Positions 13,628 through 23,125 of a DNA stretch of 64,000 nt are shown here, piece by piece. How positions within the stretch are numbered: position 1 is the first letter of the stretch; the number at the start of each line of letters is the position of its first letter. The notes beneath the pieces were generated by a model, which saw nothing but the letters and a program-made list of their open reading frames with translations, did not search any database and was not told the origin of the DNA. A program made the translations under genes and the position numbers. The stretch is from an uncultured Bacilli bacterium (GTDB lineage: Bacteria; Bacillota_I; Bacilli_A; RF39; UBA660): assembly GCA_944331935.1 (NCBI GenBank), contig CALVIV010000001.1:9968-73967 (forward strand), in the 5' to 3' direction.

Positions 13628-14821
13628 TCAAATTTTTCTAATCAAGGATTTACCTTCTTTAAAATTACAATCAGAAGCACAAGTATAATCAGGAAAGGTA
13701 CACCTAGCACCTTTAGAATATTTTATGATATCTGATGCTAAAGGATGATTTTTTTCTTCTAAAGCTTTTTTATAATCAAGTAAAGTATCTCTAGTTTGTC
13801 TCATAATCTCAAGTTGAGCAGCAGAACAAAGTCTTTCTTTACATTTTAAAATAAAATCTTCATATTTACCTTCTTCACTAATTCTAACAAGCTCACCTTG
13901 TGGAACAATATCAGAAACACTTTTTATATCATTAAGCCACTCTACAGTTAAAACCTTATCATCACTAATAATAGGTGGAACAAAATAATCTTTTTGTTCT
14001 AATCTCTCCATCTGATAATCAAGTGTTCTATGTCGTTGTGCCTGAGCAAGTTCTGCAAAAGAACCATTATAAACAGTTGAATATACATCTCCAAAATATA
14101 TTTCTTTAGACTCTAAATCATTCCCAAATAAAGATAATGACCGAGCTTTATCATTTTTTAACAATCCTTCTTCTAATACATTTAAATTTCCTAATTCATC
14201 ATAAAAGTCTTGCATTTTACTAGCTAAACTATTTTGAAAATAATCATTCTTATCTGCTTTATCTATATAATTTTTCATAAAAAATGCGATATAATTAATC
14301 TGTCTAAAAGAAGTAGAATAAATCATTTGTGTAGGCATAAATACAGAAACTAAGTATCTTGCATTCTCTTGAGCAAGTTTAGTTATCTTTGAATCATTAA
14401 AAACATCCCCATACTGCTCTTTAATTTTCACTTTAAATATTTCTATCCACTTATTATAAAGTTCTTCTTCCCTTAAAGTTATCGCATCATCTGTTCTAAC
14501 TACAGGAGTATATCTAGCAGATTTTTCACTGGTAGTATATTGATGTTCATTATTAATAACCATCGCTAATATTTTAGGAATATTTTGCATATTAAAATTA
14601 ATTGTAATATGATCATAAACACTATGATGACCATTATTAAGAGTCATATTAACTCGTCTCATTGTCTTTTTTTCATCTTCATTCAAAAGATGAAAAAATC
14701 CTTCCTTATCATAGCAAACCCCAGCAATTTTCCCAGATAGTTTAATAGCACTATCCTTAGCAAAAGTTCCATTCTTTTTCAAAAAATAATTTGGTAAAAT
14801 ATCAATTTTTAGTTTACTCAT
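13628..14821 (-). CDS. ThyX-like (flavin-dependent thymidylate synthase family) protein, divergent and unusually long.
   Basis: GHHSVYDHITINFNMQNIPKILAMVINNEHQYTTSEKSARY follows the ThyX pattern (H-x-S-V..H ... S-x-x-S-x-R-Y), but the canonical RHR is replaced by NEH. A separate QRHR occurs about 150 aa later. 397 aa. Confidence 0.4.
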   Translation of the reverse strand: MSKLKIDILPNYFLKKNGTFAKDSAIKLSGKIAGVCYDKEGFFHLLNEDEKKTMRRVNMTLNNGHHSVYDHITINFNMQNIPKILAMVINNEHQYTTSEKSARYTPVVRTDDAITLREEELYNKWIEIFKVKIKEQYGDVFNDSKITKLAQENARYLVSVFMPTQMIYSTSFRQINYIAFFMKNYIDKADKNDYFQNSLASKMQDFYDELGNLNVLEEGLLKNDKARSLSLFGNDLESKEIYFGDVYSTVYNGSFAELAQAQRHRTLDYQMERLEQKDYFVPPIISDDKVLTVEWLNDIKSVSDIVPQGELVRISEEGKYEDFILKCKERLCSAAQLEIMRQTRDTLLDYKKALEEKNHPLASDIIKYSKGARCTFPDYTCASDCNFKEGKSLIRKI

Positions 14822-14877: not shown

Positions 14878-15272
14878 TTAAACTCTTCCATAAGTTTCTA
14901 CATAAGGTTTTTTCAAGTATTCTTTAAAAATTATTTTATTATAAATATTCATTTGTAATTTATAACACTTTCCATGAGAACTATGAGCAAGCCAAGAATT
15001 CCATTCTAACACAGTCTTATCTAAATCAAGAAGACCTCTTTCATATAACATATTCCAACGTCTTACTTTTCTTTTAATCTTTTTAATACTTCTTTTCCTA
15101 AGTAATCTATAACTCTCATATATCCTAAATCCACAAAAATCAAGTCCCATCTTATTAGGATAGTATCTACTTTTATTATTAAGTTCTAAATGAAGTCTTG
15201 TCCCTACATACTTCTCTACAACTTTAAGAACTTCCTTGGCTTCCTCTTTAGTTCTAACAAACATAATAAAGT
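14878..15272 (-). CDS. DGR reverse transcriptase, exon 2 (thumb/C-terminal part). It is joined to exon 1 by splicing of the group II intron.
   Basis: The reading frame is open from 15272 (ac|ttt att atg...). After splicing it reads ...YVRYMD-D-FIMFVRTKEEAKEV..., restoring YxDD and the downstream RT thumb. Confidence 0.7.
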
Positions 15273-17192
15273 ATCGAGTAGAAATCTATGTCACCATATA
15301 TTCCCCTCACGGATCCGTACGTGCAGCTTTCCCGCATACGGCTCTTCATAATATAGATTTTAATTATTCCTCAAATTGCTTCCAAATTCTATCATATATA
15401 TTTACTTTTATATATGGCTTAGGTATATTATATTCAACTAAAAGCTTTTTAAATTCTTCTTTAGTATAACTTCGTCTTTGACTTCTTCTATTTAACCATT
15501 TAAATAGAATTTGTAAAGAACGGTAGTAGAATTTGCAAATAGAATGGTAGTTGTCTGTTATTCCAAAATAATTATAATGTCCAATTAATTTTCTTTTAAC
15601 AGTGTTCATGATATCTTCTATTGGCATAGCTCTATTGTCTTTACACCACATATTAAACTCTACTAGTTTCTTATTAAATTTACTTCGCGAAGTTTTACGT
15701 TTAACTCTAAATTTACCTTTCTTGCTTTTACTACAGTAATGTGTAAATCCTAGAAAATCAAAAGTTTCAGGTTTTCCAACTTTTGTATTATTAAGAGCAA
15801 ACCTTCCAAAGGCAATCAGTCTAGTTTTATCCGGCGCAAGTTCTAATCCTACTTCTTTAAGTCTTTTGGGTAGTAGGACTTTATAAAAGTATTCCGCCTC
15901 ATCCTTATGTTGAAAACAACATATAAAGTCATCTGCATAATTAATTATGCTTGCAAAACCTCTTAATTTTGGTTTGACATATTTTTCAAACCATTTTATA
16001 AGACTGTAGTACATGTAGATGTTCGCTAGTATTGGACTCACTATAGAACCTTGTGGTGTTCCATATTCTGAGACATAGAATTGTCCTTTATCGAGTACAC
16101 CTGCATTAAGAAACTTTCTTACAAGTATCAAAATGTTAGTATCTTTAACATGTAGTTTTAGACATTTCATTAAATTGTCATGATTAATGTTATCAAAGAA
16201 GCCTTTAATATCAGCTTCAACAACATAGCTTGTATAATTCCATTCTATATCATATGCTACTTGTGCTAAGGCTTCATGACAACCCAAGCTTTTCCTAAAG
16301 CCATACATATTATTACTAAATCTCGGTTCAAATATAGCTTCAAGTACTTTCTTCAAGGCTAATTGTACTATTTTGTCCTCAAAATTTGCTATTGCTAAAC
16401 TTCTTAATTTACCATTAGATTTAGGGATATAAACTCGTCTTGATGGCATAGGCTTGTATTCCTTTGTTTTAAGGCTATTTACTAAATTTTCTAGGTTTTG
16501 AGGTAAGTTCCTCAAATATTCATCTTGAGTTACTTTATCAATACCTACTGCTTTATTACCATTTAATTCATCAAAACACTCTTTTAGTAATTCTCTATCA
16601 ATCATATGATAAATTGAAGTAAATATTATTTTATTGTTCTCTTTTGCAATTTGATTTATTCTTGTTATTTTCTGTGTCATTATTTATCACTCCTTGTATA
16701 GTGTAACGTTTCCTTTTAACAATTTCTATATTATGTGAACCCCTTCCCTACTTTGCATTTATTTATGCAATATTAACAGTACTATGAGTTCATCTGACTA
16801 CCTATATTTCATTTGATATATTTATTTCTTATTTCATCATACTCTGTACCAATTGGCTCACTGCCTACTCTTGGACTAAGAGAAAATATAGGTTCTCACT
16901 GTTCATCGAATAAACATTGTATATCATGATTAGGTCTTACAGACTCCGTGGAAGTTTGATAATACTTCCCATAACATATTATCAAATATCGTATTCCGTT
17001 TGGACGACAACGTCTACACTTCCAATCTATATCGATACGTTTCGAAGCTCAATACTAACCCTAATACCTAACTGTCTACGCTTAATCATAAACGTTACCA
17101 TTTATGACCCAAGACTCGTTACTAGATGTGACGGGTATCACTTTCTAGACAGGAGTTCCACCTGCTAATTTATTCGACCTACACAGTCGCAC
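15273..17192 (-). mobile_element. Bacterial group II intron (about 1.92 kb) inserted in the DGR RT gene.
   Basis: The 5' end is GTGCGACTGTGTAGG, matching the GUGYG consensus. A domain V-like GAGCCGTATGCGGGAAAGCTGCACGTACGGATC lies about 60 nt from the 3' end. The intron ends ...CGAT (AY). An RT/maturase ORF sits in domain IV. Confidence 0.8.
15364..16680 (-). CDS. Group II intron-encoded reverse transcriptase/maturase, lacking an endonuclease domain.
   Basis: RT motifs GTPQGSIVSPILANIYM and INYADDFICCF (YADD), and a maturase domain X (LIGHYNYFGITDNY). The 438-aa protein ends right after domain X with no HNH/En domain. Confidence 0.85.
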   Translation of the reverse strand: MTQKITRINQIAKENNKIIFTSIYHMIDRELLKECFDELNGNKAVGIDKVTQDEYLRNLPQNLENLVNSLKTKEYKPMPSRRVYIPKSNGKLRSLAIANFEDKIVQLALKKVLEAIFEPRFSNNMYGFRKSLGCHEALAQVAYDIEWNYTSYVVEADIKGFFDNINHDNLMKCLKLHVKDTNILILVRKFLNAGVLDKGQFYVSEYGTPQGSIVSPILANIYMYYSLIKWFEKYVKPKLRGFASIINYADDFICCFQHKDEAEYFYKVLLPKRLKEVGLELAPDKTRLIAFGRFALNNTKVGKPETFDFLGFTHYCSKSKKGKFRVKRKTSRSKFNKKLVEFNMWCKDNRAMPIEDIMNTVKRKLIGHYNYFGITDNYHSICKFYYRSLQILFKWLNRRSQRRSYTKEEFKKLLVEYNIPKPYIKVNIYDRIWKQFEE

Positions 17193-17859
17193 CATCCATG
17201 TATCTAACATAGTACTTAATATGAAGTTTCTCTTTAACATAATGGTCAAGTTCATTCATATAGATATTAGCAAAGAACTGTGACGTATAATTACCAATTG
17301 GAAGCCCCACTTCTTCACCATCATTATATATAAATTCATAAGTTAAGTCTAAAAGTTTCTCATCTTTAATAAATTTATTCAAAATATTATATAAAACATC
17401 TTTATCTATATTATAAAAAAATCCCTTTATATCACATTTAACAATATAATAAGCACCATACTTATTCTTCATCTTCTGCATATATTCCTGTGCCCTATCT
17501 ACCGCTTTATGGGTACCTCTTCCTTCTATACAAGCATAAGAATCATTAATAAAGCGAGGCACAATATAAGGTTTAATAAATTCATGAATATACCACTGAT
17601 GGACTATTCTATCAACATAAGGTAAAGCTCTAATAATTCTTTCTTTAGGTTCATATATTTTAAACGTTCTATATTTTCCCATTTTATATGTACCATTCTT
17701 TAATTTCTTATAAAGATTAACTATATTAGTCTCTAAATCTACTTCAAACTTTAAAACTTCCCTAGAATATCTCTTAGTCTTACTAGCACGTTCATGTGCC
17801 TCCAACAAAGCTTCAACAGTTAAATGTTTATCAAAAGCATTTCTTATCGTGTGAGGCAT
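17193..17859 (-). CDS. DGR reverse transcriptase, exon 1 (fingers/palm up to YMD).
   Basis: The DGR-specific motif LPIGNYTSQFFANIYMNELDHYV (I-G-x-x-x-S-Q instead of the group II Q-G-x-x-x-S-P), then ...YVRYMD immediately before the intron 5' splice site. Overlaps the avd end by 16 nt. Confidence 0.75.
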
Positions 17860-18239
17860 GACCTAATCCATCCTCCATTAAGATTAGAAATATTAGTAAG
17901 TTTCTTACTCCAAGCTGTATAATTTTTAGAATTAATATACTTTTTCTTATGAGAAACTCTAATCAATACTTTAATAATTTTAAAATTAGCATCAAGCTCA
18001 TTTAAGTAGGAAAGTCTTTTTTTCTTGTCAAACTCTTTCTGAGCATAAATAATATCCTTAAGTCCTTCATAAGTAGCATTTTTAATATCTTGAGCCAATG
18101 AAAAACGTTCACTCTTAGGATATTTCAAAAGTATTGTAAGAGTATAATAAATAAGTTCTACATATTGCTTATAAATAACTAAGCCCTCTAAATCATCCAT
18201 ATAGTCGCCCTCCAAAATATCATATTTTCTAGTATTCAA
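17844..18239 (-). CDS. avd: Avd-like accessory variability determinant (small helical-bundle protein).
   Basis: About 118-131 aa, predicted all-helical and basic. Positioned between the TR and the DGR RT. The track start is TTG; an ATG (MDDLEG...) lies at 18200. Confidence 0.55.
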   Translation of the reverse strand: MNTRKYDILEGDYMDDLEGLVIYKQYVELIYYTLTILLKYPKSERFSLAQDIKNATYEGLKDIIYAQKEFDKKKRLSYLNELDANFKIIKVLIRVSHKKKYINSKNYTAWSKKLTNISNLNGGWIRSCLTR

Positions 18240-18364
18240 AAAATCTACTAACTAGAAAAAATATTACTTCTATTTTTATTCGCAAACGAATTGGAAAAAA
18301 CTCTCTATGATATTTATTTTTTATTATCTAAAATAATAACTTAAATAATCATTACATCATAGTT

Positions 18365-18480
18365 CTCATCACGAGGCGGAACGAGCCATTAACATTAGGA
18401 CCACCATTGTTACCGTTAGTGTTGAAATAGAAAACTCCCGCTATATTACCAGGATTAGAAGAATGGTTACCGCCGCGCAC
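18365..18480 (-). repeat. DGR template repeat (TR unit 1), cognate to the VR at 21261-21378.
   Basis: 108/116 identical to the VR. Seven of the 8 mismatches fall where TR has A on the minus strand (VR has G/T/C there). The TR frame encodes many Asn (AAY) codons; the VR has Y/A/V/S at those sites. Confidence 0.8.
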
Positions 18481-18718
18481 TAATCAATAAAACAAAAGAT
18501 ATATTAAGTTTCTCCCAATAAAAAAGTACCATAAAAATTAAAAGTAAACAATATATTTAAACAAAATTAAACCCACATATTTTCTAGTATTCGTATAACT
18601 ACTAACTAGAAAGATACTACTTCTTTTTTTATTCATAAAATGAATTGGAAAAAACTTTATATGATATTTATTTTTTATTATCTAAAATAATAACTTAAAT
18701 AATCATCACATCATAGTA

Positions 18719-18828
18719 CTCATCACGAGGCGGAACGAGTTGTTACTGTTCACCCCACCAAGTAAAGTGGTACGATTAAAGTTGAATACACCTGCATTAG
18801 TATTATTGTTATAGTTACCGCCGCGCAC
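18719..18828 (-). repeat. TR-like cassette, unit 2.
   Basis: Same boundaries. The inner sequence encodes VRGGNYNNNTNAGVFNFNRTTLLGGVNSNNSFRLVM, with in-frame stops on both sides. Confidence 0.6.
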
Positions 18829-19049
18829 CAACTATTACAAAAGGTTTCACAAATATTTAAAGTTTTTCCCATCTAAAAAGTATCACAATTTAAAATAGAT
18901 TACAACTAAAAATTTCTAGTATTCGTAAACCTACTAACTAGAAATAAATTACTTCATTCTTTCATTCTTATCGAAATGGAAAAAACTCTCTATGATATTC
19001 ATTTTTTATTATATCTATAATAACTTAAATAATTCTTATATCATAGTCT

Positions 19050-19159
19050 CTCATCACGAGGCGGAACGAATTGTTAATGTTACCAGCGGCCTGAGTAGTA
19101 GTACGATTAAAGTTGAAAACACCTGCATTAGTAGTATCGTTATAGTTACCGCCGCGCAC
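19050..19159 (-). repeat. TR-like cassette, unit 3.
   Basis: Encodes VRGGNYNDTTNAGVFNFNRTTTQAAGNINNSFRLVM. The boundary has one substitution (ggaacgaa). Confidence 0.6.
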
Positions 19160-19405
19160 CAACTAAATCATATTACAAAATAACTTTTAAGTTTTTCCCA
19201 ACAAAAAAGTACCATAAATTACTAAGAAAAACAATATATATAAATAAATAATTTTAAACACAATACTTTCTAGTATTCGAAAAACCTACTAACTAGAAAC
19301 ATACTACTTCATTTTTTCATTCATAAAATGAATTGGAAAAAACTTTCTATGATATTTATTTTTTATTATATACATAATAACTTAAATAATTCTTATATCA
19401 TAGTC

Positions 19406-19513
19406 TCTCATCACGAGGCGGAACGAGCCATTGTTGTTACCATTACCAAGATTCCAGGTATTGAAGTTGAAAATACCTGCATTAGAAGTGTTGTTATTGT
19501 TACCGCCGCGCAA
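19406..19513 (-). repeat. TR-like cassette, unit 4.
   Basis: Encodes LRGGNNNNTSNAGIFNFNTWNLGNGNNNGSFRLVM, with 11 Asn codons. Confidence 0.6.
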
Positions 19514-19758
19514 CAACTAAATCACATCACAAAATAACTTTTAAGTTTCTCCCAACAAAAAAGTACCATAAATTACTAAGAAAAACAATCTATATAAACA
19601 AATAGTTTTAAACACATACTTTCTAGTATTCGAAAAACCTACTAACTAGAAATATATTACTTCATTTTTTATTCATAAAATGAATTGGAAAAAAACTCTC
19701 TATGATAAATATTTTTTATTATATCTATAATAACTTAAATAATTCTTATATCATAGTT

Positions 19759-19868
19759 CTCATCACGAGGCGGAACGAGTTGTTACTGTTAGGACCACCA
19801 AGATTAATAGTTGCGTTAAAGTTGAAAACACCCGCATTAGTAGTATTATTATAACCACCGCCGCGCAC
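19759..19868 (-). repeat. TR-like cassette, unit 5.
   Basis: Encodes VRGGGYNNTTNAGVFNFNATINLGGPNSNNSFRLVM. This is the track ORF 19746..19940. Confidence 0.6.
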
Positions 19869-20078
19869 CATAACATAAATAAAACGGTATTTAAAAGTTT
19901 TTCCCAAACAAATTTTATCAAAACTACATAACAAAAACAAGGCTAAGAGCCTTGCCTATGATTACTGATATTCGCCCAAATAAACTACTAACCATCATCA
20001 TATATATAAGTTTACTTATAAAAGTAGGAATTAAATCTCTAGGATATTAATTTTTTATTATATACACAATAACTTAAA

Positions 20079-20208
20079 TTACGATTATATCGTAGTCACG
20101 CTCATCACGAGGCGGAACGAGCCTTACGAGCATCGTATCAAAATAGAGCAACAAAGAATATTGACGAAATCAATTACACAAAAAAAACCACCGCCGCGCA
20201 ACAACCAA
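20079..20208 (-). pseudogene. Degenerate VR remnant (unit 6) with its own downstream hairpin.
   Basis: Carries the VR-type flanks (gtcacgctcatcacgaggcggaacgagcc and ccgccgcgcaacaacca) of the live target gene. The inner 65 bp are unrelated and hit an in-frame stop. A hairpin tacgat-ata-atcgta sits where the live VR has tagtcc-gtaa-ggacta. Confidence 0.5.
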
Positions 20209-20394: not shown

Positions 20395-21054
20395 ATGGAT
20401 ACAGCAGTTTTAAACAATATTACTTATGGTATGTATATAGTAACTACAAAAGATAATAATAAAAATGTAGGCTGTATTATTAATACAGTAATGCAAATAA
20501 CATCAAAAAATCCTATAATATCTATAAGTTTAAACAAAGAAAACTATACAAATAAAGCATTAAAAGAAAACAAAAAATGTGCAATATCTATTTTAACAGA
20601 AGAAACAAAGCAAAAAACAATTTCAACATTTGGATATTTTTCTTCAAAGGACATAGACAAATTCAAAGATATAGAATGGGAGGAAATAAATAACTTACCT
20701 GTAGTATTAGAAAATATATCAGGATATATAATAGGAGAAGTTATAGATATAATAGATGTTAATACTCATGATGTATTTTTAATAAAGATTAAAAACACAA
20801 AACAAACATCTAATAAAACACCAATGACATACAAATACTATCATGAAGTTTTAAAAGGTAAATCACCTTCTAAAGCACCAACATATAATGAAACAAAGGA
20901 GAAGGAAAATATGAAAAAAGGAAATAAATATAAATGCACAATCTGTGGTTATATATATGATGATGAAAAAGAAGACATAAAATTTGAAGACTTACCCGAT
21001 GCTTGGAAATGTCCAATATGTGGAGTAGGTAAAGATAAATTTATTAAAATATAA
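20395..21054 (+). CDS. Flavin reductase-like domain fused to rubredoxin (high-molecular-weight rubredoxin type).
   Basis: An N-terminal FMN-binding split-barrel flavin reductase-like region, then a C-terminal rubredoxin with CTICGYIYD...[22 protein letters not shown]. Confidence 0.6.
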
Positions 21055-21238: not shown

Positions 21239-21254
21239 TAGTCCTTACGGACTA
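21239..21254 (-). promoter_or_regulatory. GNRA-type hairpin immediately 3' of the VR, embedding the target-gene stop codon.
   Basis: Minus strand tagtcc-gtaa-ggacta, a 6-bp stem with a GTAA loop. The TAA stop is within the loop. The TR copies have no such hairpin. Confidence 0.55.
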
Positions 21255-23125
21255 GTCACGCTCATCACGAGGCGGAACGAGCCATTAACACTAGGACCAC
21301 CACTGCTACCGACAGCGTTGAAATAGAAAACTCCCGCTATATTACCAGCATTAGAAGAATGGTAACCGCCGCGCAACAACCATGGGTACTCCTCACTTAC
21401 CATCGTCCTAGCATCATTATACCATCCTGATGTCTCACTTAATCCATGTGATAAACATTCACTTCCATTACATGCTGTACTAGGATTATTACTTGTATAC
21501 TTGTTATAATACTTTGCTTCTGGCATACTCTCAAATCCACTTGAAGCTACCATATCGTTATAGTTTCCCATAACATACTCCCAAGCTCCTCCTGACATAT
21601 CATATACACCATAGATTGTTCCCGTTGTACTGGCTCCTACTCCTTTTCCTGTCATTCCTTCTTCTGTTCTTATATTATTATCATATGTATATTGACATCC
21701 ATAATCTGTATTTGCATTACTTGGACTTCCATAACTACATCCCGTTATATAACTATCTGATTTATTTTGATATACTTCCTTTTCTGCACCTGTATAGTTC
21801 TCATTTCCTAATTTCCCATATTTACTTTGACTTAAATAACTTACTACTGCCCATTCATTATTTTTCATAGAATGTGAGTTCATATTTGTACTAAATCCAT
21901 ATCTATTCCCAGCCGCACTCACTTTTGTCGCTACTGCATGAATATTACTTACATTTATATTTCTCCAACTTGTTACATTTGGTTTTATCATCGCATCAAG
22001 GTTAGTTACATTTCCTCCGCCATTACTTGCACTTGGATTACTACTACTTGTCTCAAACTTTCCTACCCAAATTCCAGAAAGTTCCTCTCCATCATAAGTA
22101 AATGCATCTGGAGTATACCAATTTTTAGGTTTTTCCGTTGCAAGATATTTTGCAGTACCTGTATCTTTTTCATCTTTACTTATAAACTTAATATCAATCT
22201 CTCCTGGTAAAGCTGCTGTTGGATTACTGTTCAAATACACTCCTCTTTTTCCGTAATAAGTTGTTCCATTCTCACTTGCTATTGTATAACTATATCTCGG
22301 TATCCATACCCACATTGTCTCTACATCATCCATATTTATCTCTGTTCCAACTGGAGCACTTGTGTATTCAGCTAACTTATCACTTTTTACAGTAACAGCA
22401 TTAGCCCATATACCCATATCATAGTTATACCAACCATTACTAGTATCCGTTTTAACCCAATTATAACCATCATGTTTAATTGCAATCATATTACTATCCA
22501 TATCCGGAGCATTAACTGCATCATTTCCTTGTTCAAAATCAGGGTCATCTACTTGTTGTGTTGCAAATACTTTAAGTTGTCCTAAATACACTTTACCCAT
22601 CGCTTCATTAGTAGCATTTATATTTAACCAAACTTTTAACTCTCCATCAATTACTTCTTTAGAATCTATAACTCCATAACTTATAATTGATGAATCAGAA
22701 AGACTTCCTGTAAATGTTCTATCTCCCATTTTAAGTTCATATCTTACATCTCTAGGATCTAACAATTCACAACTTCCTCCATCTGTTGTTTGACAATTAG
22801 ATAAAGCTTCTTCATCATCTACTAATGAAAGTGTATAATATAATCCTATATTACTTTTATTCTCAAGTGAAAACTGATAAGGTGTACCACTTTTTCCATC
22901 ATCATCATATGTTGGAATAACATTCACAAGTTGTATACCATCATTTTTTTCATTTAAGACTAAATCTATATTACCAACTATAATTTGAACATCCTTTTTT
23001 CCTTTTAAAGTTGTCCTAAGCCAAGCATATGAAACACCAATAATTATAATTAAAAGAACTACAAGAGTAATAATAGCCACCTTTTTCTTATTCTCTCTCA
23101 AAGTTCTCCCTATATTTTTAACCAT
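21245..23125 (-). CDS. DGR target (variable) protein. It has an N-terminal signal anchor and a C-terminal FGE-sulfatase/C-type-lectin-fold domain carrying the VR.
   Basis: The N-terminal TM is VAIITLVVLLIIIIGVSYAWL. GVYDMSGGAWEYV is an FGE/CLec-fold hallmark. The C-terminus reads LRGGYHSSNAGNIAGVFYFNAVGSSGGPSVNGSFRLVMSVTSP. Confidence 0.7.
   Translation of the reverse strand: MVKNIGRTLRENKKKVAIITLVVLLIIIIGVSYAWLRTTLKGKKDVQIIVGNIDLVLNEKNDGIQLVNVIPTYDDDGKSGTPYQFSLENKSNIGLYYTLSLVDDEEALSNCQTTDGGSCELLDPRDVRYELKMGDRTFTGSLSDSSIISYGVIDSKEVIDGELKVWLNINATNEAMGKVYLGQLKVFATQQVDDPDFEQGNDAVNAPDMDSNMIAIKHDGYNWVKTDTSNGWYNYDMGIWANAVTVKSDKLAEYTSAPVGTEINMDDVETMWVWIPRYSYTIASENGTTYYGKRGVYLNSNPTAALPGEIDIKFISKDEKDTGTAKYLATEKPKNWYTPDAFTYDGEELSGIWVGKFETSSSNPSASNGGGNVTNLDAMIKPNVTSWRNINVSNIHAVATKVSAAGNRYGFSTNMNSHSMKNNEWAVVSYLSQSKYGKLGNENYTGAEKEVYQNKSDSYITGCSYGSPSNANTDYGCQYTYDNNIRTEEGMTGKGVGASTTGTIYGVYDMSGGAWEYVMGNYNDMVASSGFESMPEAKYYNKYTSNNPSTACNGSECLSHGLSETSGWYNDARTMVSEEYPWLLRGGYHSSNAGNIAGVFYFNAVGSSGGPSVNGSFRLVMSVTSP
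21261..21378 (-). repeat. DGR variable repeat (VR) at the 3' end of the target gene.
   Basis: Matches TR unit 1 (18365-18480) with adenine-specific mismatches. Same boundary motifs. Confidence 0.8.

What the first reader, a model, noticed from the sequence alone, without database searches (positions are those of the whole stretch)
15273..17192. Group II intron splitting the DGR reverse transcriptase exactly inside its catalytic YMDD motif (a retroelement nested in a retroelement)
Exon 1 ends ...tat gtt aga tac atg gat g|GTGCGACTGTG (5' GUGYG). A domain V-like helix (GAGCCGTATGCGGG-AAAG-CTGCACGTACGGATC) and domain VI precede the 3' junction ...CGAT|ac ttt att atg. Splicing would recreate Y-V-R-Y-M-D-D-F-I-M-F..., restoring the YxDD active site and the downstream thumb. 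The 1.92-kb intron carries an En-minus IEP (438 aa, RT0-7 plus domain X, no HNH). DGR activity is therefore conditional on intron splicing. The chosen site is the most conserved codon pair of all RTs.
Basis: seen in the sequence. Interest (0 to 1): 0.8.

Follow-up and report, generated by a model that had tools for sequence, protein, structure and literature searches.

The report
Mobile intron inside DGR reverse transcriptase
A self-splicing, mobile group II intron sits inside the catalytic YMDD codons of a diversity-generating retroelement's reverse transcriptase gene, and it belongs to an intron lineage that has recently inserted at this same spot in many different DGRs of uncultured gut Bacilli.

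Summary
Window 15273-17192 (minus strand) is a complete 1920-nt group II intron. It has a 5' GUGCG, six domains supported by covariation, a domain V AGC triad, a bulged branch A, and an intact 438-aa RT/maturase without an endonuclease domain. It splits a bona fide DGR reverse transcriptase between bases 1 and 2 of the second Asp codon of YMDD. Removing it in silico gives a 353-aa RT that aligns without gaps to uninterrupted homologues (92% aa identity). These include a syntenic intron-free allele with an empty site.

New here: this is not a one-off. The intron's 5' 20-mer occurs in 12 species-level genomes, and in all 12 it directly follows ...RYMD-G. Overall, 21 of 23 distinct flanks are this site. 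The window's intron is about 99% identical to copies whose host RTs are only 31-33% identical, which indicates recent site-specific retrohoming. EBS1 and EBS2 pair with the R-Y-M-D codons and covary in a sister lineage that targets a Bro-N gene.

Splicing itself, and therefore conditional DGR activity, is inferred and not shown. I found no description of this in the searchable literature.

Side finding: this DGR carries a tandem array of alternative template repeats, which appear to be used in turn.

The parts
17193..17859 (-). DGR reverse transcriptase exon 1: codons 1-222 plus the first base (G) of Asp223. Contains RT motifs 1-4 including IGNYTSQ, and the Y-M-D of YMDD. If unspliced, it reads through to ...YMDGATV*, a 226-aa truncated product.
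17200..17204 (-). IBS2 (GAUAC, exon positions -12 to -8, part of the Arg and Tyr codons). Pairs with EBS2.
   Evidence: read from the sequence
17193..17198 (-). IBS1 (UGGAUG, exon positions -6 to -1, from the Met and Asp codons). Pairs with EBS1.
15273..17192 (-). Complete group II intron, 1920 nt, 5' GUGCGAC ... CUACUCGAU 3'.
16898..17190 (-). Intron domain I. Includes the EBS2 loop (GUAUC, 17034-17038), the EBS1 loop (CGUCCA, 17001-17006) and a candidate EBS3 (U at 17071).
16796..16897 (-). Intron domain II.
16736..16792 (-). Intron domain III.
15347..16735 (-). Intron domain IV. The closing stem is 16725-16735 paired with 15347-15357. It carries the IEP ORF, with an AGGAG Shine-Dalgarno sequence upstream of the ATG.
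15364..16680 (-). Intron-encoded protein, 438 aa: RT domain with YADD plus the X/maturase domain, with no D/En (HNH) domain.
15312..15344 (-). Intron domain V (GAGCCGUAUGCGGG-AAAG-CUGCACGUACGGAUC), with the AGC catalytic triad and a 2-nt bulge.
15273..15311 (-). Intron domain VI. The bulged branch-point A is at 15279, 7 nt from the 3' splice site.
14878..15272 (-). DGR RT exon 2: the last two bases of Asp223, then FIMF..., motifs 6-7 and the thumb, through the stop codon. The first base, A at 15272, is IBS3.
17844..18200 (-). avd (DGR accessory variability determinant), 118 aa from the ATG at 18200. Overlaps the RT start.
18365..18478 (-). Template repeat TR1, the cassette that matches the current VR (8 differences, 7 at TR adenines).
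18222..20199 (-). Tandem array of TR cassettes (TR1-TR5, period 354 nt, plus a degenerate sixth unit at 20101-20199). All share the VR-flank sequences.
21245..23125 (-). DGR target gene (626 aa) with a C-terminal VR at 21261-21374. A hairpin TAGTCC-GTAA-GGACTA lies at 21239-21254, just after the VR.

Best explanation
This is an active, or very recently active, mobile group II intron. It uses EBS1, EBS2 and probably EBS3 (IIB-like), and its IEP has no endonuclease domain. Its homing site is the DNA that encodes R-Y-M-D-D in DGR reverse transcriptases.

Proposed mechanism:
1. The intron RNA recognises the sense strand by base pairing. EBS2 GUAUC pairs with GAUAY, EBS1 CGUCCA pairs with UGGAUG or UGGACG, and a candidate EBS3 U pairs with the +1 A.
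2. It reverse-splices between G and A of the second Asp codon.
3. Because the IEP has no nuclease, the intron is probably copied into DNA from a replication-fork primer.
4. After transcription of avd-RT, the ribozyme, helped by its own maturase, should splice out as a lariat. This recreates the YMDD codons and the full 353-aa RT.
5. Mutagenic retrohoming by this DGR therefore depends on, and is probably throttled by, intron splicing.

The site suits a selfish element. The codons AGA-TAT-ATG-GAT are nearly invariant in AT-rich genomes and cannot change without killing the RT. The intron's own YADD codons (TAT GCA GAT GAC) do not match EBS1, so it does not invade itself.

Shown: anatomy, boundaries, pairings, lineage-wide site specificity and recent spread. 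Inferred: splicing in vivo, the priming route, and any effect on DGR output.
For: Anatomy and boundaries:
- Rfam D1-D4 and D5/D6 hits sit at the exact ends.
- The IEP scores above the TIGR04416 cutoff.

RNA structure:
- A consensus fold of 15 distinct ORF-deleted relatives gives D1-D6. 98.8% of cells are paired and 60 of 168 pairs show compensatory changes.
- Slid controls give 34-46% paired and 5-12 compensatory pairs. Column shuffles reach at most 93.4% paired.

Exon continuity:
- The spliced ORF aligns without gaps to intron-free RTs.
- A syntenic empty site exists.

Site specificity:
- The intron's 5' 20-mer is found in 12 GTDB species genomes, all directly after ...RYMD-G.
- 21 of 23 distinct upstream contexts are TAY-ATG-GAY-G.
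- The interrupted hosts L004, L006 and L032 are real DGRs, with TR-to-VR mismatches at TR adenines in 19/20, 15/18 and 16/16 positions.

Recent mobility:
- Intron nucleotide identity to L012 is 99.1% and to L008 is 98.9%, while host RT identity is 31% and 33%.
- Intron and host divergence are uncorrelated (r = 0.08).
- Copies also occur at ectopic sites (L039, L040, L028).

EBS assignments:
- The sister lineage (IEP 61% identical) sits in a Bro-N gene at GAAUUU-UGGUAUG|C. It has EBS1 CAUACCA(A) and EBS2 AAUUC in the same loops. At intron position 122 it has G where the DGR lineage has U.

Priming route:
- The intron is in sense orientation in a gene on the strand that carries 39 of the 43 long ORFs (over 200 codons, found by a simple regex count).
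- GC skew of the plus strand is -0.30.
- This puts the intron in the lagging-strand template, which fits fork-primed mobility of En-minus introns (review PMC4424553).

Dependence on splicing:
- There is no second DGR RT in the window.
Against: - No transcript or splicing data exist for this organism.
- The insertion looks very recent, so intact exons do not prove that the interrupted gene is still under selection.
- Identity values between intron copies come from short-read metagenome assemblies, where near-identical 1.9-kb repeats can be collapsed or mis-joined. L027 versus L029-31 looks like such a case.
- EBS3 rests on a single covariation event.
- The structural class (A-F, CL, ML) was not determined.
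- EBS2 pairing is weak in some hosts, for example L006 with CGC for Arg.
- The window's VR could have diversified before the intron arrived.
Confidence: 0.85

Rival explanations
1. Dead-end insertion. The intron landed in the RT gene but does not splice efficiently in this host, so this DGR is simply knocked out. The arrangement would then be a transient pseudogene state, not a working split gene.
For: Bacterial group II introns often behave as selfish DNA with inefficient splicing and can repress their host gene (Ll.LtrB, PMC6003770, listed). The insertion is recent (99% identity to other copies), so intact exons are uninformative. Intron-free alleles are common.
Against: All ribozyme hallmarks and the maturase are intact. 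Every one of about 20 interrupted host genes keeps both exons open and in frame. The lineage has diverged to about 65-75% IEP or intron identity while staying in this site. That is hard to sustain if every insertion killed a useful gene. Interrupted DGRs have diversified VRs.
Confidence: 0.1
2. Domesticated switch. The DGR host exploits the intron as a regulator, so that mutagenic retrohoming happens only when splicing is permitted, for example depending on maturase level, Mg2+ or growth state.
For: RT production must pass through splicing, because there is no second RT. The association recurs across many DGRs.
Against: Close relatives run the same DGR without the intron. The spread pattern (near-identical copies, ectopic insertions, a sister lineage in an unrelated gene) is that of a selfish element. 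Nothing indicates host control.
Confidence: 0.07
3. Ancient, vertically inherited intron. A single old insertion into an ancestral DGR RT has co-diverged with its host gene, with no current mobility.
For: The position is identical in all hosts.
Against: Intron and host divergence are uncorrelated (r = 0.08). Introns that are 99% identical sit in RTs that are 31-33% identical. The closest RT homologues lack the intron. Ectopic copies exist.
Confidence: 0.02
4. Assembly artefact. A repeated intron sequence was wrongly joined into an RT gene.
For: The intron is a multi-copy repeat in these metagenomes. One likely chimera was seen (L027 versus L029-31).
Against: In the window, both flanks match the same intron-free homologue along its whole length (92% aa). 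The junctions fall to the base on canonical splice sites and restore the frame. The same junction recurs in many independent assemblies.
Confidence: 0.01

Closest known systems
Nested archaeal group II introns (Methanosarcina acetivorans) that home site-specifically into other group II introns; twintrons in general (reviewed in PMC4424553)
   Same: A group II intron whose homing site lies inside another retroelement. Insertion is repeated and site-specific.
   Different: There the target is another group II intron with no host gene at stake. Here the target is the catalytic YMDD codons of a DGR RT, a beneficial non-mobile retroelement, and the intron's own YADD is not a target.
Ll.LtrB in the relaxase gene ltrB of lactococcal conjugative elements (PMC6003770, PMC7947834, listed)
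   Same: An intron sits in a conserved motif of the key enzyme of another genetic element. The element's function requires splicing, and the intron can dampen host-gene expression.
   Different: Ll.LtrB is IIA with an En-plus IEP and its host enzyme is a relaxase. This intron has no En domain, is IIB-like, and its host enzyme is itself a reverse transcriptase.
RmInt1 and other En-minus bacterial introns (classes C-F and some CL; PMC4424553, PMC4615759)
   Same: The IEP has only RT and X domains. Homing is by EBS/IBS pairing. Priming is presumed to come from the replication fork, and the strand orientation here fits that model.
   Different: RmInt1 targets an IS transposase gene. Class membership of the present intron was not established.
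Homing group I introns and inteins in catalytic motifs of conserved genes
   Same: Same evolutionary logic: the element parks in the least mutable codons of a gene, so the site persists and spreads (my own knowledge).
   Different: The mobility machinery differs (homing endonuclease or protein splicing) and the RNA or protein chemistry differs.
Sister intron lineage found here (IEP P0230, loci L022-L026) inside a Bro-N domain gene
   Same: Same ribozyme scaffold and IEP family (61% identity). It also sits in a coding sequence, and splicing restores the ORF.
   Different: EBS1, EBS2 and the position-122 nucleotide are re-tuned to GAAUU-U-UGGUAUG|C. The host gene is unrelated to RTs.

Membership tests
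Group II intron (mobile, IEP-encoding) | Six-domain ribozyme secondary structure | tested here: met
   Rfam RF02005 (138.8 bits) and RF00029 (52.6 bits). RNAalifold on 15 relatives gives D1-D6 with 60 of 168 compensatory pairs and 98.8% pairing, against 34-46% when slid.
Group II intron (mobile, IEP-encoding) | Boundary consensus: 5' GUGYG and 3' AY | tested here: met
   GUGCG at 17192 and ...CGAU at 15273.
Group II intron (mobile, IEP-encoding) | Domain V with AGC triad and bulge; domain VI with a bulged branch A 7-8 nt from the 3' splice site | tested here: met
   D5 lies at 15312-15344. The branch A lies at 15279.
Group II intron (mobile, IEP-encoding) | EBS1/EBS2 in domain I complementary to the 5' exon | tested here: met
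   CGUCCA pairs with UGGAUG and GUAUC pairs with GAUAC. Both covary with the target in the sister lineage.
Group II intron (mobile, IEP-encoding) | IEP in domain IV with RT motifs and the X/maturase domain | tested here: met
   TIGR04416 at 333.7 bits (cutoff 300), covering model positions 2-352 of 353. YADD is present. Pfam GIIM is only weak (17.8 bits, cutoff 23).
Group II intron (mobile, IEP-encoding) | Self- or maturase-assisted splicing with lariat formation | not testable with these tools
   Needs RNA data or an in vitro assay.
Group II intron (mobile, IEP-encoding) | Retromobility | tested here: met
   Comparative evidence only. Copies 99% identical sit in host genes 31-33% identical. 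Empty sites and ectopic copies exist.
Group II intron structural or IEP class (IIA/IIB/IIC; bacterial A-F, CL, ML) | Class-specific RNA features and IEP phylogeny | tested here: inconclusive
   It is not IIC, because it uses EBS2 and a coding-sequence homing site. A candidate EBS3 at intron position 122 covaries with +1, whereas the IIA-type delta position does not, which suggests IIB-like. PDB relatives (LtrA, E.r., GsI-IIC, T.el4h) are all equally distant. No reference set of classed introns was available.
Diversity-generating retroelement (host element) | RT of the DGR clade with the (I/V/L)GxxxSQ motif and Y(M/V)DD | tested here: met
   IGNYTSQ and YMDD are present in the spliced protein. 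The best PDB hit is bRT 8ub7 at E 6.9e-46. Motif definition from PMC3521204.
Diversity-generating retroelement (host element) | TR/VR pair differing at TR adenines | tested here: met
   TR1 (18365-18478) versus VR (21261-21374): 8 mismatches, 7 at TR adenines, no gaps.
Diversity-generating retroelement (host element) | Accessory Avd gene | tested here: met
   NF033474 at 81.9 bits (cutoff 80). Pfam bAvd at 79.8 bits.
Diversity-generating retroelement (host element) | VR at the C-terminus of a target protein, followed by IMH and a hairpin | tested here: met
   The VR forms the last ~45 codons of the 626-aa ORF. The hairpin TAGTCC-GTAA-GGACTA lies at 21239-21254. The fold of the target (C-type lectin or FGE-like) was not tested; Pfam gives no hit.
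Diversity-generating retroelement (host element) | Ongoing mutagenic retrohoming | not testable with these tools
   Orthologous targets in other samples carry differently mutated VRs. This shows activity in the lineage, not in this intron-carrying strain.

The most novel reading that the evidence does not exclude
The intron is more than a passenger. Because every molecule of DGR RT must pass through splicing, the intron and maturase act as a gate that makes hypermutation of the target protein pulsed or condition-dependent. On this reading, DGRs and this dedicated intron lineage co-evolve as a two-retroelement system in gut Bacilli. Recombination between intron copies might also shuffle RT exons between DGRs.
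Probability: 0.1. Interest if true: 0.8.

Novelty: new member of a known kind. Interest (0 to 1): 0.6.

Why it matters
- It documents a group II intron lineage whose dedicated homing niche is the active-site codons of another retroelement's reverse transcriptase. This is a clean natural case of one retroelement parasitising another, with evidence of current spread.
- It has a practical consequence. DGR finders that require an intact RT ORF will report two fragments of roughly 220-260 aa and 100-130 aa, and will miss or discard these DGRs.
- It offers a natural system to ask whether intron splicing limits DGR mutagenesis.
- It provides a compact (~600-nt ribozyme), En-minus intron with a well-defined, covariation-validated target code.

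Tried and rejected
1. Viral contigs. The intron 20-mer gave 0 hits. The junction pattern TAYATGGAYGGTGCGAC gave 22 hits, all chance matches inside ordinary genes (mostly a terminase-like ...DEADYMDGATWDV) with no domain V downstream. There is therefore no evidence for this arrangement in phage DGRs.

2. IIA-type delta-delta' pairing. The U 5' of EBS1 could pair with +1 A, but it does not covary in the sister lineage, so I rejected it in favour of a candidate EBS3 at position 122.

3. Intron class from solved IEP structures. This was uninformative.

4. Literature. Eight full-text searches were run. I also read the DGR surveys and the group II reviews (PMC5758913, PMC3521204, PMC8934634, PMC4244168, PMC12350094, PMC4424553 and the Roux preprint). 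None mentions a group II intron inside a DGR RT. Absence from this library is not proof of novelty.

5. L027 versus L029-31. These share the same intron and exon 2 but have different exon 1. One host is an RT without the SQ motif. I treated this as a probable assembly chimera, not as exon shuffling.

6. dN/dS on exon 2 as a test of continued selection. Not attempted, because the insertion is too recent for the test to be informative.
Full report
**What is in the sequence.**
On the minus strand, an ORF starting at 17859 runs to ...TAT GTT AGA TAC ATG GAT G and then reads through into GTGCGACTGTG. The intron ends ...CTACTCGAT at 15273 and is followed by AC TTT ATT ATG. Exon 1 (17193-17859) is 667 nt and exon 2 (14878-15272) is 395 nt. 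Joining them keeps the frame and gives a 353-aa protein reading ...KYYVRYMDDFIMFVRTKEEAK.... The split therefore falls after the first base of the second Asp codon of YMDD. Left unspliced, exon 1 terminates as ...YMDGATV* at 226 aa.

**It is a group II intron.**
- A gathering-threshold Rfam scan of the whole window gives exactly two hits. RF02005 (group-II-D1D4-6) lies at 16932-17158 with 138.8 bits and E 1.9e-39. RF00029 (domain V/VI) lies at 15273-15346 with 52.6 bits, and its last model position falls on the proposed 3' splice site.
- The 438-aa ORF in domain IV (15364-16680) scores 333.7 bits on TIGR04416 (cutoff 300) across the whole model. It has YADD. It hits only RVT_1 and, weakly, GIIM in Pfam, with no HNH, so it is an En-minus IEP.
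- I collected 15 distinct relatives, removed their ORFs and computed a consensus fold. It gives the canonical D1-D6 layout: 168 pairs, 98.8% of cells paired and 60 pairs with compensatory changes.
- When the 3' partners are slid by 1-3 columns, pairing falls to 34-46% with 5-12 compensatory pairs. Column shuffles never exceed 93.4% pairing.
- Domain V (15312-15344) has the AGC triad and a 2-nt bulge. Domain VI has a bulged A at 15279, 7 nt from the 3' end.

**The host gene is a DGR reverse transcriptase.**
- The spliced protein carries the DGR hallmark IGNYTSQ (definition in PMC3521204). Its best solved relative is the Bordetella phage bRT (8ub7, E 6.9e-46).
- Directly upstream is avd (NF033474, 81.9 bits against a cutoff of 80; Pfam bAvd 79.8 bits).
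- TR1 (18365-18478) and the VR at the 3' end of a 626-aa gene (21261-21374) differ at 8 positions without gaps, and 7 of these are TR adenines.
- A GTAA-looped hairpin follows the VR.
- tblastn finds no other DGR-type RT in the 64 kb.

**Intron-free alleles exist.**
The spliced protein finds thousands of uninterrupted RTs. The best are 92% identical over 100% of its length, and the alignment runs without gaps through YVRYMDDFI. Contigs L001-L003 carry that homologue. L001 shows the same downstream neighbourhood (rpsL, rpsG and an EF-G-sized gene) and L003 has avd upstream. At 89% nucleotide identity they read ...AGATATATGGATG|ATTTTATTATG..., which is an empty site.

**It is a lineage with a dedicated homing site.**
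- IEP homologues at 87%, 82% and 70% identity are flanked by an upstream RVT_1 fragment and a short downstream ORF. Avd is annotated upstream for the 82% and 70% homologues. Their genomic neighbourhoods differ.
- Scanning 185,579 species genomes for the intron's first 20 nt, a pattern that contains no exon sequence, returned 12 genomes. They are uncultured Bacilli, Tenericutes or Mycoplasmatota MAGs, plus one labelled Clostridium and one labelled Paludibacteraceae. In all 12, the intron is preceded by ...RYMD-G.
- Adding metagenome contigs gives 23 distinct 25-nt upstream contexts. Of these, 21 end TAY-ATG-GAY-G and 2 are ectopic (L039; L040 at ...TCATGGATG|A). A further copy sits in a 4HBT thioesterase gene (L028).
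- The host RTs are very diverse. Their SQ motifs include PIGNYTSQ, AIGNVTSQ, PIGGLTSQ and SIGAMTSQ, and one host RT lacks the SQ motif.
- Three hosts examined in detail are genuine DGRs, with 19/20, 16/16 and 15/18 TR-to-VR mismatches at TR adenines.

**The spread is recent.**
The window's intron is 99.1% identical in nucleotides to the copy in L012 and 98.9% identical to the copy in L008. The host RTs are only 31% and 33% identical in amino acids. Across 55 locus pairs, intron and host divergence are uncorrelated (r = 0.08). This excludes simple vertical inheritance.
One caveat applies. These are short-read assemblies, and near-identical repeats can be collapsed or mis-joined. L027 shares its intron and exon 2 with L029-31 but has a different exon 1, and I read it as a likely chimera.

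**How the site is recognised.**
- The terminal loop GUCGUCCA (EBS1 CGUCCA, 17001-17006) pairs with the last six exon bases, UGGAUG. In hosts that use GAC for Asp, the pairing is fully Watson-Crick. One relative (L019) has CAUCCA instead.
- The internal loop GUAUC (17034-17038) pairs with GAUAC at -12 to -8. Most hosts have GAUAU there, which gives a G-U pair.
- The sister lineage (IEP 61% identical) sits in a Bro-N gene, and splicing restores the Bro-N domain. Its target is GAAUU-U-UGGUAUG|C. The same two loops read AAUUC and CAUACCA(A), which is full compensatory covariation.
- One unpaired D1 position (intron nt 122, window 17071) is U in every DGR-targeting copy and G in the sister lineage. 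This matches +1 A versus +1 C, so it is a candidate EBS3. The nucleotide 5' of EBS1 does not covary.
- The intron thus behaves like a IIB-type intron, but I could not assign it to a named class.
- The intron's own YADD codons (TAT GCA GAT GAC) mismatch EBS1 at two positions, so self-invasion is not expected. This is read directly from the sequence.

**Mobility route (inferred).**
The IEP has no endonuclease. Such introns use replication-fork primers (PMC4424553). The window has a plus-strand GC skew of -0.30, and 39 of 43 long ORFs (over 200 codons) lie on the minus strand. The intron is in sense orientation on that strand, so it lies in the template for lagging-strand synthesis, as that model predicts.

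**Consequence for the DGR (inferred).**
The only RT available to this DGR must be produced from spliced mRNA. Nothing here measures splicing. The intact ribozyme and maturase, the consistently open exons in about 20 interrupted genes, and the persistence of the lineage at this site down to about 65% IEP identity all argue that splicing works. A recent knockout cannot be excluded for this particular strain.

**Comparison with what is known.**
Mechanistically this is an ordinary mobile group II intron. The closest precedents are:
- Nested archaeal introns that home into other group II introns.
- Ll.LtrB in a relaxase gene.
- RmInt1 in an IS transposase gene.

What I could not find described is a DGR RT as the homing niche. 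I found nothing in eight full-text searches, the DGR surveys, or the group II reviews that I read. The held library is incomplete, so prior description elsewhere is possible. I rate the finding as a new member of a known kind, of moderate-to-good interest.

**Side finding: the TR array.**
- Between the target gene and avd lies a tandem array (18222-19870, period 354, 4.8 copies, plus a degenerate unit at 20101-20199). It consists of TR-like cassettes. All start GCGCGGCGG and end TCGTTCCGCCTCGTGATGAG, like the single VR. Their AAY-rich interiors differ by substitutions and indels.
- Intron-free relatives have arrays of 7.5 copies, and of 4.5 plus 3 copies, upstream of avd.
- A 96%-identical orthologue of the target gene (L071) carries a VR that differs from the window's TR3 at 14 positions. 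All 14 are TR adenines, with no gaps. The same VR differs from TR1 at 42 positions.
- The window's own VR matches TR1.
- Other orthologues show VRs of TR4, TR5/TR2 or TR6 type. Some are truncated variants consistent with the stop codon encoded in the TR6-like unit.
- This suggests that alternative template cassettes overwrite one VR in turn. I found no description of this either, and it deserves its own follow-up.

Noticed in passing
window 18222-20199 (array); VR 21261-21374; loci L064, L067, L071: The DGR has a tandem array of 5-6 alternative template-repeat cassettes (period 354 nt). All share the VR's flanking homology, but their interiors differ. A 96%-identical orthologous target (L071) has a VR derived from the TR3-type cassette (14 of 14 mismatches at TR adenines), while the window's VR derives from TR1. 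Relatives have arrays of up to 7.5 copies. This looks like cassette switching layered on adenine mutagenesis. I did not find it in the literature searched.
   Followed up: partly
window 20101-20199; proteins P0243, P0249, P0287, P0288: The sixth, degenerate cassette is T-rich, encodes ...GGFFCVIDFVNILCCSILIRCS* with a stop codon, and ends with VR-type (IMH-like) sequence, not TR-type. Several orthologous target proteins end with this kind of sequence and are truncated (607 aa), or carry it with the stop mutated. It may be an OFF cassette or an orphan VR.
   Followed up: partly
loci L022-L026: A sister intron lineage (IEP 61% identical) sits inside a Bro-N domain gene at ...GAATTTTGGTATG|CAAGAG. 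Its EBS1 and EBS2 are re-tuned to that site, and splicing restores the Bro-N domain.
   Followed up: yes
loci L027, L029, L030, L031: An identical 1920-nt intron and identical exon 2 are joined to two different exon 1 sequences. One is a DGR-type SQ RT. The other is an RT without the SQ motif (...GIALGVEIAQ...PIERYMDD). L030 also has a small deletion and a duplication at the junction. This is either an assembly chimera or recombination between intron copies (exon shuffling).
   Followed up: partly
loci L028, L039, L040: Ectopic copies of the same intron lie outside RT genes: in a 4HBT thioesterase gene, after ...GGTGTATCCG, and after ...TCATGGATG|AC (IBS1-like). This is consistent with occasional retrotransposition.
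   Followed up: partly
window 1-64000: There is a very strong strand asymmetry. Plus-strand GC skew is -0.30 throughout, and 39 of 43 ORFs over 200 codons are on the minus strand. GC content is 29%. Relatives are uncultured gut Bacilli (one target homologue is labelled Candidatus Onthousia faecavium).
   Followed up: partly
window 20395-21054 (+): A flavin reductase-rubredoxin fusion gene on the opposite strand sits between the DGR target gene and the TR array. The same arrangement is seen in L071 and L073, so the target and the rest of the DGR are separated by an unrelated gene.
   Followed up: no
window 13628-14821 (-): A 397-aa ORF immediately downstream of the RT has only a partial ThyX (Thy1) match (residues 27-174). 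In relatives L067 and L068, a 392-aa gene at the same position is annotated PF00303 Thymidylat_synt. The gene content between the RT and rpsL varies among relatives.
   Followed up: no
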